Positions 33,390-36,404 of a stretch of 64,000 nucleotides of DNA are shown in pieces (the first letter of the stretch is position 1; every line of letters begins with the position of its first letter). The notes under the pieces are model-generated. The model saw only the letters and a list, made by a program, of their open reading frames with translations, was not told where the DNA came from and made no database searches. Source of the stretch: a virus; the IMG/VR virus record IMGVR_UViG_3300019487_000020, positions 1 through 64,000 of that record; one strand, written 5' to 3'. A program made the translations under genes and the position numbers.

Positions 33390-34181
33390 CTAGGACGCAC
33401 GGGCACGAGTGTAAGATTGCAGGCGTTCAAAAGTATAACCTTTAACCTGTCGTACAAAGCTCGTACCCAGGCAGGCTCTTTTAATGGTATGACGAGAGCA
33501 CCCCATGTCCTTGGCAGCATCCTCTATGCAATCATAGCGTTTTCCGTCGCTTCTTACTACAGGAGTTTTGTTTGCCAATTCCTTAAGCTTATCTTTAGTT
33601 TCTTGTGTGTGGTTACAGCCTTTCATTGCTGAAGTTTCGCCTGTTCGTCCTTTGTTCCAAGGAGTAGACATAAGGCCCTTGGTACCTTTATTCCATGGTA
33701 TTTTGCCGAACATTGGATTGCCCGCTCCCATGCGCGACCTAGACATGCTTCTCACCAACTCTACCGGCCTTTTGCGGCCTCGGTGCGCTTGCGAGATGGC
33801 CTTTTTGGTGGCGTCCGAGTGCCTGCGGCCAAACATGGGCGATTTCTTGCCGAAATTGTGATTGTTGCTGCCGGAAATTTTGCTTATAGTTTTCGCGGAC
33901 AGACGGTGAAACTTGGACCCTCCCGTTGTCAAGTTATAGCCCATAGGCGAAAATGTGTTGAACAAACGTATGCACAATCTTTCTCTATGATCTAACTCGT
34001 CAAACGTTTCTGCCCTCACAACGATGTATACTTCAAAAGCCTCTATTCCGTGTTTGCGTAAAGCATGTCCAATGGCGCTGTTTGATCGCTTGTGTGAATA
34101 TAGCCTGCTCGATAGTGATTTTGTAGTTTGACCCACATAACTTTTGCCAGTATATTTGTTGCGTATTCGATAAATTATCAT
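33390..34181 (-). CDS. GIY-YIG homing endonuclease (second copy)
   Basis: ATG 34181. The motifs are IIYRIRNKYTGKSYVGQT..R..H and YNLTTGG, with NUMOD-like repeats. The gene is AT-rich. Confidence 0.85.
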   Translation of the reverse strand: MIIYRIRNKYTGKSYVGQTTKSLSSRLYSHKRSNSAIGHALRKHGIEAFEVYIVVRAETFDELDHRERLCIRLFNTFSPMGYNLTTGGSKFHRLSAKTISKISGSNNHNFGKKSPMFGRRHSDATKKAISQAHRGRKRPVELVRSMSRSRMGAGNPMFGKIPWNKGTKGLMSTPWNKGRTGETSAMKGCNHTQETKDKLKELANKTPVVRSDGKRYDCIEDAAKDMGCSRHTIKRACLGTSFVRQVKGYTFERLQSYTRARAS

Positions 34182-34230
34182 CGTGTGCAAGATTGCATGC
34201 GAGCCTAACCTGCTTTCTCTAGGAGATAAG

Positions 34231-34908
34231 ATGAAAAAAATTAGAATGATCACTGTGGATGCCCAGGACGGGCTCGGAAAAACAACTTTAATTAACAACC
34301 TAAAGAAACTGTTCGCAAATCGCCCTATCCATTCTACCAGGCTTCTTGGTGGATCGGGGGAAGACGACTTCCAGCTTGCTTTGCGCAAAGTATTGCTGCA
34401 TCCTAAGTTTCCTATCAATTCTGTAGAGTTAGAGGAGCAGCTTTTTGCTCTAACGGACGTAGAGGGTATCAGAGAAGCAGGCAGGTTTTTGGCATCTACG
34501 CCTGGAGGAATAGTATTAAAAGATAGAGCCTTGGCCAGCCATGTCTGCTATGCGCTTGCCAAGTTTATGACCGTGCACCAGATCGAGCGTTGCCATGAGC
34601 AGGTTATCTACGAAGAGAAGAAGCTCAGCAAGGAGTATGGTTCTTTAAATATCATATTGGCCGCCACTGAGACTGATTTTGTTATAGACCGTATACGCAA
34701 GCGTGCGGCCTTGACTGGCGAGCCAATCGTGGAGCGTTTGGAAAATGAGCAAGTTCAGTGGTCAGTTATGAATGCAATGAGATCGTTTCCAGACCACGTG
34801 CTTGCGCAAGGGCTGGAGTACAGACTCTTGGAGGTCGCGCCCCAGGACTCCATACAAGACGTGTTTGCGAAGGCGAAGGCCATCCTAGACAACTACGAAA
34901 TCGGCTAG
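34231..34908 (+). CDS. thymidylate-kinase-family (d)NMP kinase
   Basis: ATG follows AGGAG. The P-loop is DAQDGLGKTT, KDRALASHVCYA matches the Tmk DR(Y/H) motif, and DRIRKRAAL is a LID-like segment. Confidence 0.6.
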   Translation: MKKIRMITVDAQDGLGKTTLINNLKKLFANRPIHSTRLLGGSGEDDFQLALRKVLLHPKFPINSVELEEQLFALTDVEGIREAGRFLASTPGGIVLKDRALASHVCYALAKFMTVHQIERCHEQVIYEEKKLSKEYGSLNIILAATETDFVIDRIRKRAALTGEPIVERLENEQVQWSVMNAMRSFPDHVLAQGLEYRLLEVAPQDSIQDVFAKAKAILDNYEIG

Positions 34909-34920
34909 AAAGGGCACCCA

Positions 34921-35805
34921 ATGAACTTCGACGTCAACAAAGCGATCGAGGAGATCGCCGAGCGCGGATACACGCTCCAGCAGACCGGAATGTCCCCCGA
35001 GGACCTGGTGAGGCTGGAGGCCGAGCTTAAGGCCACTACCGCCTCGCACTACACGGAGGAGAACCTGGCCAAGCACTCGGTCTACCTCTCGGACAAGACG
35101 CCTACCCGCGTGAGCAACGCGATGATGATCGCCCAGGACCACTTGATCGGCTCCTCTCTGCGCTCCGAGGGCTCGCTGCCGGCGGTGCAGATCATTCCCT
35201 CGGGCATAGTGCTGGAGCTTTTGAAGTTCCACGACCGCGTGCTGGGCAGCATGACGGGCGGCCCCGCGGTGGGAGTTCACTCGCGCAGCATGCTCAACTT
35301 CCAGGAGTACTTCGCCGGCTCCAAGCCCGTGGCGCGCCACTACGACGGGGAGTACCTGTGCTACGTGAAGAAGTCTCCGACCGAGTTCCAGCTGCTGGAG
35401 GGCCTGTTGCCCCGCTACGTCATGGTGTTCACCATACGCAACGAGAACGTAGGCGAGGAGAACGAGGGCACGGTCCTGTACGAGGTGGCCACCGGGAAGA
35501 CCGTGAGCCCCCAGAGCCGCCCGGGCATGGTGCTCATGTTCGACAACATACGCTTCAGGCACGAGGTGCCGGAGCTTAAGAAGCCACGGCTGATGTGCGG
35601 CCTGAGGAACTTCGACCACATGCCCATGTACTTCACCTCCGACTCGTGCAGTGCGCCGGGCGAGTTCGAGCTGCCTGACGCCCAGAGCCCCGGATACGCG
35701 TCCCCCATGAACAGCATCGAGGCCGAGGCGCTCATGCTGATGTACAACGAGAACGACTGGCCGGAGCAGTGGTCGAAGATGAAGTCTGAAGGGGCTGTCT
35801 TTTGA
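34921..35805 (+). CDS. 2OG-Fe(II) oxygenase-like protein
   Basis: An HxD (ARHYDGE), a distal His (RFRHEV) and an Arg about 10 residues later fit the facial-triad and 2OG-binding layout. Confidence 0.45.
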   Translation: MNFDVNKAIEEIAERGYTLQQTGMSPEDLVRLEAELKATTASHYTEENLAKHSVYLSDKTPTRVSNAMMIAQDHLIGSSLRSEGSLPAVQIIPSGIVLELLKFHDRVLGSMTGGPAVGVHSRSMLNFQEYFAGSKPVARHYDGEYLCYVKKSPTEFQLLEGLLPRYVMVFTIRNENVGEENEGTVLYEVATGKTVSPQSRPGMVLMFDNIRFRHEVPELKKPRLMCGLRNFDHMPMYFTSDSCSAPGEFELPDAQSPGYASPMNSIEAEALMLMYNENDWPEQWSKMKSEGAVF

Positions 35806-36404
35806 AGGCGCTGCACGCCGCGGACCCAGCGCAGGCGTACAAGATGATCGAGCACGAGCTGCTCATGCGCGAGGACCAAGAGCCGCTGCGCAACGTCTTG
35901 ATTACGATCTACGACATGCAGCGGGACAAGCTGGTGGTCGAGAACGAGATGTTCAGCCGCAACGTGCTGGAGTCCTACACCGACATGAACCTGGGCAAGA
36001 CCATGTTCTACAGGGACGGCACGCACTCCCTCGACAGGGGCGGGGACCTGGGCTACTACGCCGACGGCATGAAGGAAAAGATCGAGACCCTGCTCAAGAG
36101 CCTCAGGGACCGGCCCTTCAGCAAGCGGTCGCTGCTGACCATACCGCCCTTCCACAAGGGGAGCGTGAACCAGCGGCCGGAACGCGACGACGACGCCAAG
36201 TGCCTGCGCGAGCTTCACTTCTACGTCAACGGCGACAGAGAGCTGATGTGCACGGGCATAATGCGCGCCCAGGTTTCTATGTTGTTTCCAAAGAACGTGC
36301 ACATGATCGGCACCCTGCTGAACGACCTGGCCGAGAGCCTTGGCTACAAGGTCGGCGCCTACACGCACTTCATCACCACGCTGACGGACAGCCGCTCCGC
36401 TTAA
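35802..36404 (+). CDS. thymidylate-synthase-fold protein (ThyA / dNMP hydroxymethylase-like), short form
   Basis: LRDRPFSKRSLL, AKCLRELHFYVNGDRELMC, MRAQV and FPKNVH align by eye to the ThyA segments DPDSRRIIV, PCHAFFQFYV, QRSCD and PFNIA. Confidence 0.5.
   Translation: MKALHAADPAQAYKMIEHELLMREDQEPLRNVLITIYDMQRDKLVVENEMFSRNVLESYTDMNLGKTMFYRDGTHSLDRGGDLGYYADGMKEKIETLLKSLRDRPFSKRSLLTIPPFHKGSVNQRPERDDDAKCLRELHFYVNGDRELMCTGIMRAQVSMLFPKNVHMIGTLLNDLAESLGYKVGAYTHFITTLTDSRSA

What the first reader, a model, noticed from the sequence alone, without database searches (positions are those of the whole stretch)
33390..36404. Opposite-strand island: Tmk-like kinase, 2OG-Fe(II) oxygenase-like and short ThyA-fold protein, a possible pyrimidine hypermodification module
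Three tightly coupled + strand genes (34231-36404) are embedded in minus-strand virion genes. A GIY-YIG homing endonuclease bounds them on one side and a bidirectional terminator on the other. The ThyA-fold protein keeps the catalytic-Cys context (AKCLRELHFYV) and the Asn of PFN(I) (FPKNVH) that specifies uracil in ThyA, but it is only 200 aa. The kinase has the Tmk P-loop, DR-motif and LID. Phages with 5-hydroxymethyl-dU-derived bases (PhiW-14, SP10, ViI and M6 types) combine a ThyA-like dUMP hydroxymethylase with dedicated kinases. Other phages use TET/JBP-type 2OG oxygenases on DNA bases. I do not recognise a ThyA-like, Tmk-like and non-TET-looking 2OG oxygenase trio as a described pathway. 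The window also encodes a deoxynucleotidase-like HAD protein, a second P-loop kinase and a Nudix hydrolase, which could exclude the canonical nucleotide.
Basis: partly seen in the sequence, partly recalled or inferred. Interest (0 to 1): 0.7.

Follow-up and report, generated by a model that had tools for sequence, protein, structure and literature searches.

The report
Phage kinase, oxygenase, mini-ThyA operon
A small, separately transcribed phage operon pairs an unclassified iron/2-oxoglutarate oxygenase with a stripped-down thymidylate-synthase-fold enzyme (plus a thymidylate-kinase-like kinase); the same pair sits in bacterial nucleoside-salvage gene clusters, which points to undescribed chemistry on the 5-methyl group of thymine nucleotides.

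Summary
Genes 34231-34908 (Tmk-family kinase), 34921-35805 (Fe(II)/2OG oxygenase fold, no Pfam family) and 35802-36404 (200-aa ThyA fold) form a tightly coupled + strand operon among minus-strand virion genes. It has its own promoter-like site and a terminator hairpin.

The trio recurs, in the same order, in at least 7 related uncultured phage contigs with 34-60% GC. The oxygenase and mini-ThyA are the core pair. Every oxygenase homologue whose context I could read has a mini-ThyA within about 3 kb. The pair also occurs in 15 bacterial loci, usually as oxygenase-aldehyde dehydrogenase-miniThyA. Other bacterial mini-ThyA genes follow a Zn-alcohol dehydrogenase and an aldehyde dehydrogenase. Their neighbours include a 5'-nucleotidase, a nucleoside phosphorylase, a NupC transporter and thymine-dioxygenase-like oxygenases.

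The mini-ThyA keeps the Cys nucleophile, the phosphate-binding Arg/Lys and the uracil-specifying Asn. It lacks the folate Asp169 and the C-terminal lid. Its closest solved relative is the flavin-dependent dCMP 5-hydroxylase AfhB, but it lacks that enzyme's signature residues.

My best reading, which is inferred, is oxidation of the thymine methyl of dTMP followed by Cys-assisted removal of the oxidised carbon, giving dUMP. I found no description of this module in the papers I searched.

The parts
34128..34156 (+). Sigma-70-like promoter candidate (TTGACC-17-TATATT) upstream of the kinase gene
   Evidence: 10 of 12 matches. This is a consensus match only. The region had 4 such sites against 1.5 expected.
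34231..34908 (+). Divergent thymidylate-kinase-family (d)NMP kinase ('kin'), 225 aa. Carries a P-loop (DGLGKTT), a TRLLGG motif, a DR motif (KDRALASHVAYALAK) and a LID (R..R......ERLEN).
   Evidence: Pfam Thymidylate_kin E=0.0023, below threshold. phrog_761. NCBIfam dTMP kinase 3.6e-4. The family profile hits Tmk structures first, at 9e-5. Of 27 homologues, many are flagged PF02223. GC3 is 0.55 against 0.91 for its neighbours, rising from the 5' to the 3' end.
34921..35805 (+). Orphan-family Fe(II)/2-oxoglutarate oxygenase ('oxy'), 294 aa. Invariant H140-x-D142, H214 and R223.
   Evidence: No Pfam, PHROG, NCBIfam or PDB sequence hit. 24 homologues with an invariant triad. AlphaFold model pLDDT 93. 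Foldseek top hits are prolyl-4-hydroxylases/PHD2 and DAOCS, E=6e-10, probability 1.0.
35802..36404 (+). Miniature ThyA-fold enzyme ('thy'), 200 aa. Its TTG start overlaps the oxy stop. Family-wide invariants are Y86, K108, R109, K133, C134, R136, E137, R155, Q157, K164, N165 and R198.
   Evidence: Pfam Thymidylat_synt E=0.0022, below threshold; phrog_160 2e-6. Model pLDDT 80. Foldseek top hit is the HY126 AfhB dCMP hydroxylase 9iqu (TM 0.79), then MilA, T4 dCMP hydroxymethylase and ThyA. Profile against PDB: AfhB 2.8e-11, MilA 1.6e-7, ThyA 3e-3.
36410..36439 (.). G+C-rich hairpin between the convergent genes thy (+) and 36466-37311 (-). Terminator-like in both directions.
   Evidence: 13-bp stem with 9 G-C pairs.: -24.2 kcal/mol, z=-2.2.
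33390..34181 (-). GIY-YIG/NUMOD homing endonuclease, divergent from the operon. It is a mobile insertion next to the module, not a functional part of it.
   Evidence: Pfam GIY-YIG, NUMOD3 and NUMOD1; phrog_314 1e-42. GC 0.46 and GC3 0.48. Absent at this position in L005, L006 and L047.

Best explanation
The island is a self-contained nucleotide-metabolism operon. Its functional core is the oxygenase plus mini-ThyA pair. The Tmk-like kinase is a frequent but optional partner.

Proposed mechanism (inferred, not shown):

1. The Fe(II)/2OG oxygenase oxidises the C5-methyl group of a thymine deoxynucleotide, most likely dTMP. The products would be 5-hydroxymethyl-, 5-formyl- and perhaps 5-carboxy-dUMP. 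This is the chemistry that fungal thymine-7-hydroxylase performs on free thymine.
2. The mini-ThyA binds this 5-substituted dUMP through its retained phosphate-binding Arg/Lys and its uracil-specifying Asn. Its conserved Cys adds to C6, and the oxidised one-carbon unit is expelled as CO2, formate or formaldehyde. The product is dUMP. No folate is needed, which fits the loss of Asp169 and of the C-terminal lid.
3. The Tmk-like kinase phosphorylates the resulting pyrimidine dNMP.

The net effect would be conversion of thymidylate to deoxyuridylate, a nucleotide-level analogue of the fungal thymidine salvage pathway. In bacteria this would let thymine nucleotides or nucleosides be salvaged as uracil. 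In the phage it would rewire the dTMP/dUMP pool. I cannot tell whether the phage's goal is dU-containing DNA, dTTP depletion or supply of an oxidised intermediate.

Shown: the folds, the catalytic residues, operon coupling and the conserved co-occurrence. Inferred: the substrate, the reaction order and the products.
For: **Operon and conservation.**

- Overlapping or closely spaced ORFs, a ribosome-binding site at each start, a promoter-like site and a terminator hairpin.
- The order kin-oxy-thy recurs in L005, L006, L009, L043, L047 and L106, and in part in L031. These span 34-63% GC and sit at the same spot among virion genes.

**The oxygenase is never seen without thy.**

- Every oxy homologue with readable context has thy downstream. 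This includes the distant phages L048 and L007/L105, 14 of 55 bacterial genome loci and the metagenomic locus L049. That fits thy acting after oxy.

**Gene order and neighbours in bacteria.**

- oxy-ALDH-thy occurs in about 10 genome loci plus L049, and oxy-thy directly in 3 loci.
- Zn-ADH-ALDH-thy occurs in about 19 loci. The ALDH sits at position -1 in 30 of 55 loci.
- A methyl/alcohol oxidiser, then an aldehyde oxidiser, then thy, is what a methyl to CH2OH to CHO to COOH to removal sequence predicts.
- Recurrent neighbours: 5'-nucleotidase (11 loci), PNP_UDP_1 nucleoside phosphorylase (10), PfkB kinase (9), HAD hydrolase (8), DIOX_N/2OG-FeII_Oxy oxygenase (6), a NupC nucleoside transporter, and a YfbR-like 5'-deoxynucleotidase directly after oxy-thy in L089.

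**Link to thymine dioxygenase.**

- The DIOX_N oxygenase that lies convergent with thy in L001 (66% identical to the one in L019) has Neurospora thymine dioxygenase T7H as its best PDB hit, at 7e-33.
- The bacterial version has T7H as its third-best hit, at 2e-39.

**thy active site.**

- Cys134, Arg155 (E. coli R166), Lys108/Arg109 (R126'/R127'), Tyr86 (Y94) and Asn165 (N177, uracil-type) are invariant.
- The Asp169 position is Ala, Val or Leu, and about 45 C-terminal residues of ThyA are missing.
- New invariant cationic residues (K133, R136, K164, R198) line the site.

**Phage context.**

- A Tmk-family kinase is adjacent here. In L048 a dCMP deaminase and ribonucleotide reductase are adjacent. 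This places the pair in deoxypyrimidine metabolism.
Against: - No enzyme activity, ligand or DNA composition data exist for any family member.
- The ALDH is closest to succinate-semialdehyde dehydrogenases, at 527-584 bits against a cutoff of 646. The ADH is closest to class-III/formaldehyde-type ADHs. Neither says 'formyl-uracil'.
- ADH-type operons carry a 5'-nucleotidase and oxy-type operons do not. That also fits oxidation of the sugar 5' carbon instead.
- In Sessilibacter (L052) oxy, ADH and the T7H-like oxygenase all co-occur, so oxy is not simply their substitute.
- The nearest solved relative of thy is a flavin-dependent hydroxylase. The Actinomarina-type thy genes are translationally coupled to a Pyr_redox_2 flavoprotein. 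thy may therefore be an oxygenase rather than a lyase or decarboxylase.
- A phage's benefit from dTMP to dUMP conversion is unclear unless its DNA contains dU, and I have no evidence for that.
- Only 64 kb of the 155-kb genome was readable, so I could not check for ThyA/ThyX, dUTPase or a UDG inhibitor.
Confidence: 0.4

Rival explanations
1. Pre-replicative synthesis of a non-canonical pyrimidine. The mini-ThyA adds a C5 substituent to dUMP. This could be a hydroxyl, using flavin and O2 as AfhB does on dCMP, or a hydroxymethyl from formaldehyde or folate. The oxygenase either oxidises that substituent further or makes 5-hm-dUMP directly from dTMP. The Tmk-like kinase activates the modified dNMP for incorporation into phage DNA.
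For: - The closest solved relative of thy is the 5-hydroxy-dCMP synthase AfhB (TM 0.79, profile E=2.8e-11).
- Known phage pathways pair a ThyA homologue with a dedicated dNMP kinase and a dCMP deaminase (PMC13326640 section 24; PMC8989533).
- This operon has the kinase, and L048 has the deaminase.
- N165 predicts a uracil nucleotide.
- Some thy genes are coupled to a flavoprotein reductase-like gene.
- A Lar-like restriction-alleviation gene and two homing endonucleases show that this phage is engaged in nuclease conflicts.
Against: - thy lacks the AfhB signature: N177D, D169N and L143E are instead N, A/V/L and K.
- It lacks the folate Asp169 and the C-terminal lid.
- The window has no glycosyltransferase, aGPT-Pplase, 5-HMUDK-type cluster or TET/JBP.
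- The same pair is chromosomal in many bacteria, inside salvage-type clusters with nucleotidases, phosphorylases, transporters and ALDH. A DNA-modification role is hard to reconcile with that.
- L107 keeps the kinase without the pair.
Confidence: 0.28
2. The pair acts on another part of a pyrimidine nucleotide. One option is sugar C5' oxidation: the oxygenase converts an NMP to a nucleoside-5'-aldehyde with loss of phosphate, as LipL/Cpr19-type UMP dioxygenases do (from my own knowledge). ADH would make the same aldehyde from the nucleoside, ALDH would make the 5'-carboxylate, and thy would process that. The other option is pyrimidine ring degradation that yields a semialdehyde.
For: - ADH and oxy alternate at the same operon position. 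Only ADH-type operons carry a 5'-nucleotidase.
- The ALDH is nearest to semialdehyde dehydrogenases.
- The Arg-rich site of thy could bind a carboxylate instead of a phosphate.
Against: - oxy shows no significant similarity to the TauD-type family. One member hit TauD at E=0.052, and the structural neighbours are P4H/PHD.
- T7H-like thymine dioxygenase homologues are the recurrent extra oxygenase.
- A ThyA-fold Cys nucleophile is specialised for C5/C6 chemistry of the base.
- The phage operon has no ALDH.
Confidence: 0.14
3. There is no joint pathway. The genes are an ordinary phage dTMP kinase, a generic phage 2OG oxygenase (for example a protein hydroxylase) and a decayed thymidylate synthase remnant that merely lie side by side.
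For: - All three score below the curated Pfam thresholds.
- The kinase occurs alone in L107.
- The structural neighbours of oxy are protein prolyl hydroxylases.
- The kinase has a different GC3 history from the other two genes.
Against: - oxy and thy are translationally coupled.
- They co-occur in every context examined across phages (34-63% GC) and in 15 bacterial loci from several phyla.
- thy has 23 family-wide invariant residues, including the nucleophile. That is not decay.
- The family has about 136 clusters at 50% identity, spread over phages, bacteria and intron-bearing eukaryote-like contigs.
Confidence: 0.06

Closest known systems
Phage HY126 AfhB / RB69 gp48 / DLP3 gp80 5-hydroxy-dCMP synthases (flavin- and O2-dependent ThyA homologues; PDB 9iqu, 9iqc; PMC13326640)
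   Same: - Compact ThyA fold without the long C-terminal folate lid.
- Catalytic Cys, Tyr94-equivalent and phosphate-binding Arg residues are kept.
- Best structural match (TM 0.79) and best sequence match (profile E=2.8e-11).
- Phage-encoded and works with a dNMP kinase.
   Different: - The signature residues are not shared. Position 177 is Asn, not Asp, so the base would be uracil rather than cytosine.
- Position 169 is Ala, Val or Leu, not Asn. Position 143 is an invariant Lys, not Glu.
- About 17% identity.
- Partnered with a 2OG oxygenase, and in bacteria with ALDH/ADH, not with arabinose-activating enzymes or glycosyltransferases.
Canonical thymidylate synthase ThyA, and the folate-dependent hydroxymethylases (T4 gp42 dCMP hydroxymethylase, SPO1-type dUMP hydroxymethylase, MilA)
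   Same: - Same fold, with the nucleophilic Cys in the same strand.
- R166, R126'/R127', Y94 and N177 equivalents are present.
   Different: - 190-200 aa against 246-330 aa.
- Below the Pfam and NCBIfam thresholds.
- No Asp169, no W80/W83-type motif and no C-terminal lid.
- New invariant residues K133, R136, E137, K164 and R198.
Fungal thymidine salvage pathway: thymine-7-hydroxylase (T7H, a 2OG oxygenase) plus iso-orotate decarboxylase (PMC4787775, PMC6305744)
   Same: - The proposed logic is the same: stepwise oxidation of the thymine methyl, then loss of the carboxyl to give uracil.
- T7H-like oxygenases sit next to thy in eukaryote-like and bacterial loci.
   Different: - The phage oxygenase is not a DIOX_N/2OG-FeII_Oxy family member.
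- thy is a ThyA-fold Cys enzyme, not a metal-dependent amidohydrolase.
- The retained phosphate site and the kinase and deoxynucleotidase neighbours suggest nucleotides rather than the free base.
- The analogy is functional and untested.
Phage TET/JBP-type 5-methylpyrimidine dioxygenases (PMC8256090, PMC13229309)
   Same: Fe(II)/2OG oxygenases encoded by phages that oxidise a pyrimidine 5-methyl group.
   Different: - Those enzymes act on DNA after replication and belong to the TET_JBP family.
- This oxygenase has no TET_JBP match. Its nearest structures are prolyl hydroxylases.
- It is tied to a mononucleotide-binding ThyA-fold partner.
Thymidylate kinase (Tmk, PF02223)
   Same: - P-loop, TRxxGG motif, DR motif and Arg-rich LID.
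- Tmk structures are the only top profile hits.
   Different: - Scores below the Pfam cutoff (18.1 against 27 bits).
- Forms a 27-member family found only in this phage group, at 43-56% identity.
- Substrate unknown; dTMP, dUMP or a 5-substituted dUMP are all possible.

Membership tests
Thymidylate synthase ThyA (PF00303) | Scores above the curated family threshold | tested here: not met
   Pfam 17.6 bits against a cutoff of 24.3. NCBIfam 20 bits against cutoffs of 174-327.
Thymidylate synthase ThyA (PF00303) | ThyA alpha/beta fold with the nucleophilic Cys (E. coli C146), R166, R126'/R127', Y94 and N177 | tested here: met
   Foldseek hits to ThyA at E~1e-8, TM 0.57-0.68. The alignments place C134, R155, K108/R109, Y86 and N165 at those positions.
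Thymidylate synthase ThyA (PF00303) | Folate site: Asp169, the W80/W83 region and the C-terminal lid (about 55 residues after H207) | tested here: not met
   Position 169 is Val in the window and Ala or Leu elsewhere. Only 11 residues follow H189.
5-hydroxy-dCMP synthase (AfhB / RB69 gp48 type) | Signature N177D, D169N and L143D/E, as defined in PMC13326640 | tested here: not met
   N165, V158 (Ala or Leu in relatives) and K133 occupy these positions.
5-hydroxy-dCMP synthase (AfhB / RB69 gp48 type) | Bound flavin and O2-dependent hydroxylation | not testable with these tools
   Needs purified protein. The only hint is the Pyr_redox_2 neighbour of Actinomarina-type thy genes.
Fe(II)/2-oxoglutarate oxygenase superfamily | Double-stranded beta-helix fold carrying an HxD/E...H iron triad and a basic residue that binds 2OG | tested here: met
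   Model pLDDT 93. 548 PDB matches at E<=1e-3, all of the listed top 50 being 2OG oxygenases. H140, D142, H214 and R223 are invariant in 24 sequences. The H-to-R spacing is 9 residues, which I recall as the spacing in PHD2.
TET/JBP 5-methylpyrimidine dioxygenases | Match to the TET_JBP family, or TET/JBP as the nearest structures | tested here: not met
   No Pfam hit for any of the 24 members. The top 50 structural neighbours are P4H/PHD2, DAOCS, H6H and TraH.
Thymidylate kinase (PF02223) | P-loop, DR(Y/H) motif, LID and family-level score | tested here: inconclusive
   The motifs are present and Tmk structures are the top profile hits at 9e-5. Many homologues are flagged PF02223. The window protein itself scores 18.1 against a cutoff of 27.
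Known thymidine-hypermodification clusters (5-HMUDK + aGPT-Pplase, with or without PLP or rSAM enzymes) | aGPT-Pplase and a DNA kinase near the ThyA homologue | tested here: not met
   Pfam across the other ORFs of the window gave only DUF4326, Clp protease, NUDIX, AAA_28, Metallophos, Lar, F5_F8_type_C and Apolipoprotein. The remaining roughly 90 kb of the genome was not readable.

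The most novel reading that the evidence does not exclude
The oxygenase and mini-ThyA pair is an undescribed enzymatic 'thymidylate demethylation' route (dTMP to 5-hm/5-f/5-ca-dUMP to dUMP). 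In it a ThyA-fold enzyme runs C5 chemistry in reverse, as a Cys-dependent decarboxylase, deformylase or dehydroxymethylase. It would be shared by bacteria, some eukaryotes and a clade of roughly 120-170-kb phages. In the phages, together with a dedicated dUMP-accepting Tmk-like kinase, it would serve to replace thymine by uracil (or by an oxidised 5-substituted uracil) in virion DNA.
Probability: 0.25. Interest if true: 0.9.

Novelty: new variant of a known kind. Interest (0 to 1): 0.7.

Why it matters
ThyA-fold enzymes are the entry point of nearly every known pre-replicative pyrimidine modification in phages: 5hmC, 5hmU and, since 2025-26, 5hoC.

This work defines a further, rare clade. It has about 136 clusters at 50% identity among 1.8 billion representative proteins. 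It has lost the folate site, keeps the covalent-catalysis machinery, and is coupled to an unclassified 2OG oxygenase.

If the pair converts thymidylate to deoxyuridylate, it would be the first nucleotide-level and first bacterial or phage counterpart of the fungal thymidine salvage pathway. It would also be a natural example of the Cys-assisted removal of an oxidised C5 carbon that has been discussed for active DNA demethylation.

If instead it builds a new base, it adds a new route to modified phage DNA, with consequences for restriction evasion and for sequencing.

Either way the result is directly testable. The genes are small, and two cultured bacteria carry the bacterial version: Halioxenophilus aromaticivorans KU68F and Sessilibacter corallicola C21.

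Tried and rejected
- **Close cultured relatives.** blastn of 33000-37000 and tblastn of the oxygenase against 50,697 phage records found nothing. tblastn of thy found only weak hits to Enterococcus phage ThyA.
- **Sequence-level classification of the oxygenase.** Pfam, PHROGs, NCBIfam, and PDB searches with phmmer and with the family profile all failed. Only the predicted structure classified it.
- **A relationship between the phage oxygenase and the DIOX_N oxygenase beside thy in L001.** BLASTP found none. They are two different 2OG oxygenase families.
- **Papers by PDB code.** A search for 9IQU, 9IQC and 9IR2 failed. The Foldseek description led to the right paper instead.
- **IMG/VR scans.** They returned only L009 and L007/L105, so viral collections hold few members.
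- **Treating the trio as obligate.** Rejected after L107 (kinase alone) and L048/L007 (pair without an adjacent kinase).
- **thy in this phage as a recent xenologous replacement.** It is 32-35% identical to the thy of L005/L006, while oxy is 54-57% identical. The neighbour-joining tree only shows a long isolated branch. Left open.
- **The frmA/frmB-like pair beside oxy-thy in L055 as evidence for formaldehyde release.** This is a single locus and may be a housekeeping operon. Not used.
Not found by Pfam.

Full report
**1. What is there**

The window comes from a 155-kb uncultured phage contig with about 60% GC. It carries a portal, a major head protein, a terminase with an endonuclease-like insertion and a GroEL-like chaperonin.

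Between minus-strand virion genes lie three + strand ORFs:
- kin, 34231-34908;
- oxy, 34921-35805;
- thy, 35802-36404.

The flanking minus-strand genes are a tail-fibre-like protein at 32158-32991 and, beyond a 281-aa protein, a metallophosphoesterase, a tmRNA and a tRNA, the major head gene at 39194-40582.

Each ORF has a ribosome-binding site. oxy starts 12 nt after the kin stop. The TTG start of thy overlaps the oxy stop as TTGA. A promoter-like site lies at 34128-34156, and a 13-bp G+C-rich hairpin at 36410-36439 closes the unit. A GIY-YIG/NUMOD homing endonuclease (33390-34181, minus strand) lies upstream.

**2. The three proteins**

*kin.* This is a divergent thymidylate-kinase-family protein.
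- Pfam, PHROG and NCBIfam hits are weak.
- A profile of five orthologues hits only Tmk structures at the top, at 9e-5.
- The P-loop, TRxxGG motif, DR motif and Arg-rich LID are all present.
- Its 27 homologues are 43-56% identical. Those whose context I read come from phage contigs, and many are flagged PF02223.

*oxy.* This protein has no sequence-level family.
- Its 24 homologues share an invariant H140-x-D142, H214 and R223.
- The AlphaFold model (pLDDT 93) is a double-stranded beta-helix.
- Its nearest solved structures are prolyl-4-hydroxylases/PHD2 and DAOCS, at E=6e-10. TET/JBP proteins are not among the listed neighbours.

*thy.* This protein has a ThyA fold.
- The model has pLDDT 80.
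- Its best match is the phage HY126 dCMP 5-hydroxylase AfhB (9iqu, TM 0.79), followed by MilA, T4 dCMP hydroxymethylase and ThyA.
- A family profile gives AfhB 2.8e-11, MilA 1.6e-7 and ThyA 3e-3.
- The alignments place C134 at the ThyA nucleophile, R155 at R166, K108/R109 at R126'/R127', Y86 at Y94 and N165 at N177.
- Asp169 is replaced by Val, Ala or Leu. ThyA's C-terminal segment of about 45 residues is absent.
- K133, R136, E137, K164 and R198 are new family-wide invariants.
- The published signature of 5-hydroxy-dCMP synthases is N177D, D169N and L143E (PMC13326640). It is not met.

**3. Conservation in phages**

- The same kin-oxy-thy order, at the same place among virion genes, is found in L005, L006, L009, L043, L047 and L106, and in part in L031. 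L012 and L016 show oxy-thy at contig ends. Locus GC ranges from 34% to 60%.
- More distant phages keep oxy and thy without an adjacent kin. In L048 the pair sits beside a dCMP deaminase, an endonuclease VII, a MazZ-like dGTP diphosphohydrolase domain and ribonucleotide reductase. In L007/L105 thy lies 2.4 kb downstream of oxy.
- L107 keeps kin alone at the syntenic site.
- The functional core is therefore oxy+thy, and kin is a common but separable partner.

**4. The same pair in cells**

A metagenome scan gave 37 thy loci and a GTDB scan gave 55. The genomes include Woeseiaceae, Cellvibrionaceae (Sessilibacter corallicola C21 and Halioxenophilus aromaticivorans KU68F), Alteromonadaceae, Halieaceae, Archangium, Anaerolineales, Acidimicrobiales, Ca. 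Actinomarina and Oligoflexales.

Local profile searches and neighbour clustering show the following.
- The phage-type oxy lies upstream of thy in 14 of the 55 genome loci, and also in the metagenomic locus L049.
- An aldehyde dehydrogenase lies immediately before thy in 30 of 55 loci.
- The position before the ALDH is taken either by oxy (about 10 loci) or by a Zn-dependent alcohol dehydrogenase (about 19 loci).

Recurrent neighbours:
- a 5'-nucleotidase (11 loci);
- a PNP_UDP_1 nucleoside phosphorylase (10 loci; three paralogues surround thy in Anaerolineae);
- a PfkB kinase (9 loci);
- a HAD hydrolase (8 loci);
- a DIOX_N/2OG-FeII_Oxy oxygenase (6 loci);
- a NupC-type nucleoside transporter;
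- in L089, a YfbR-like 5'-deoxynucleotidase directly after oxy-thy.

Further points:
- In contigs that look eukaryotic (intron-split thy, protein kinases, ankyrin repeats), thy lies beside a DIOX_N oxygenase. That oxygenase's best solved relative is Neurospora thymine dioxygenase T7H, at 7e-33. The bacterial version has T7H as its third-best hit.
- Every oxy homologue whose context I could read has thy. thy occurs without oxy.
- The thy family is rare: 136 clusters at E<=1e-10 among 1.84 billion representatives.

**5. Interpretation**

The constant partners of thy are enzymes that oxidise a carbon stepwise: 2OG oxygenases of two unrelated families, an alcohol dehydrogenase and an aldehyde dehydrogenase. 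They sit in clusters that import and dismantle nucleosides or nucleotides, and thy is the last gene.

The retained residues of thy say 'uracil-type mononucleotide, covalent catalysis at C6'. Its losses say 'no folate'.

The reading that explains most of this is a thymine-to-uracil conversion:
1. The methyl group is oxidised, by oxy in phages and by oxy, T7H-like oxygenase, ADH and ALDH in cells.
2. thy then expels the oxidised carbon after Cys addition at C6.

This is the logic of the fungal T7H/iso-orotate decarboxylase pathway (PMC4787775, PMC6305744). Here it would be carried out by unrelated proteins and probably on nucleotides. kin would then phosphorylate the resulting dNMP. I rate this at about 0.4. 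All steps beyond fold, residues and co-occurrence are inference.

**6. Rivals**

It is supported by the AfhB relationship, by the kinase and deaminase neighbours, and by a flavoprotein coupled to some thy genes. It is weakened by the missing signature residues, by the absence of any known downstream modification enzyme in the window, and by the chromosomal salvage-type contexts. I rate it about 0.28.
- **(b) Chemistry on the sugar 5' carbon, or on the ring.** It is suggested by the alternation of ADH plus nucleotidase with oxy, and by the semialdehyde-dehydrogenase-like ALDH. I rate it about 0.14.
- **(c) No joint pathway.** It is contradicted by translational coupling and universal co-occurrence. 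I rate it about 0.06.

**7. Limits**

- No experimental data exist for any member.
- Only 64 kb of the genome could be read, so I cannot say whether the phage has a thymidylate synthase, a dUTPase or a UDG inhibitor.
- Within the window, Pfam found none of these and no glycosyltransferase, aGPT-Pplase or TET/JBP.
- Literature searches found no description of this module. The library lacks most subscription journals.

**8. Verdict**

This is a real, conserved and apparently undescribed operon. Its functional guess is plausible but is not the best-supported one. I classify it as a new variant of the known 'phage ThyA-homologue plus kinase' theme, with a fair chance of being new pathway chemistry. 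Interest 0.7.

Noticed in passing
window 38629-38976 (-) and 39018-39092 (-): A phage-encoded tmRNA (ARAGORN tag peptide ATDEVPMQDAA; Rfam RF00023 at 89.7 bits against a gathering score of 47) lies next to a tRNA-Arg(CCT), just upstream of the major head gene.
   Followed up: partly
window 34231-34908 compared with 34921-36404: The kinase gene has GC3 0.55. It rises from about 0.4-0.5 in the 5' half, beside the homing endonuclease, to 0.70 at the 3' end. oxy and thy have GC3 0.91-0.92. In five relatives all three genes share one GC3. This looks like a homing-endonuclease co-conversion tract from a lower-GC relative. No close donor was found; the best match is 56% identical.
   Followed up: partly
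window 31339-32142 (-) and 33390-34181 (-): Two GIY-YIG/NUMOD homing endonucleases with GC 0.46-0.49 sit in a 60% GC genome, inserted between virion genes. Neither is present at the matching positions in L005, L006 or L047.
   Followed up: partly
window 50552-53734 (-): The 1060-aa large terminase carries a LAGLIDADG homing-endonuclease-like segment at residues 326-514 (phrog_11023). The 1057-aa gene in the matching position of L048 has an Intein_splicing hit, so this is probably an intein.
   Followed up: no
window 25232-31477 (-): A giant 2081-aa ORF lies upstream of the tail-fibre-like gene. It carries several repeats of an acetyltransferase-like motif (...HRRKGLATAMYQ...). The corresponding proteins in L005 and L006 have weak Acetyltransf_1 hits.
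   Followed up: no
window 53742-55514 (-), 44897-45262 (+), 56334-56897 (+), 1201-1638 (+): A GroEL-like chaperonin, a Nudix hydrolase, an AAA_28 P-loop kinase and a Lar-like restriction-alleviation protein. PHROGs gave one scanned ORF a 'thymidylate kinase' family match (phrog_2107), probably this AAA_28 protein. No HAD-family protein was found.
   Followed up: partly
L051-L103 (for example L097 3038-12247; L052 1509-8500): Bacterial chromosomes carry a conserved cluster: HAD, 5'-nucleotidase, Zn-ADH, ALDH, mini-ThyA, T7H-like 2OG oxygenase, nucleoside phosphorylase and PfkB kinase. A variant has a NupC transporter with oxy-ALDH-thy. It looks like an undescribed bacterial thymidine or 5-hydroxymethyluracil salvage pathway.
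   Followed up: partly
L001 4314-5901; L019 103-1782; L002 764-8942: Contigs that look eukaryotic carry mini-ThyA genes, intron-split in L002-L004. They lie beside a thymine-dioxygenase-like oxygenase, and in L002 also near an aldehyde dehydrogenase. The window protein's closest database relatives (40-44% identity) belong to this group.
   Followed up: partly
L048 10001-17145: In a 132-kb, 37% GC phage the oxy-thy pair heads a nucleotide-metabolism block: dCMP deaminase, endonuclease VII, a dGTP_diPhyd_N (MazZ-like) protein and both ribonucleotide reductase subunits.
   Followed up: no
L039/L040 (for example L040 227-2090) and L098-L102: In Ca. Actinomarina-type loci thy is translationally coupled to a Pyr_redox_2 (NDH-2-like) flavoprotein instead of an ALDH or oxy. 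This may hint that thy uses reduced flavin, as AfhB does.
   Followed up: no
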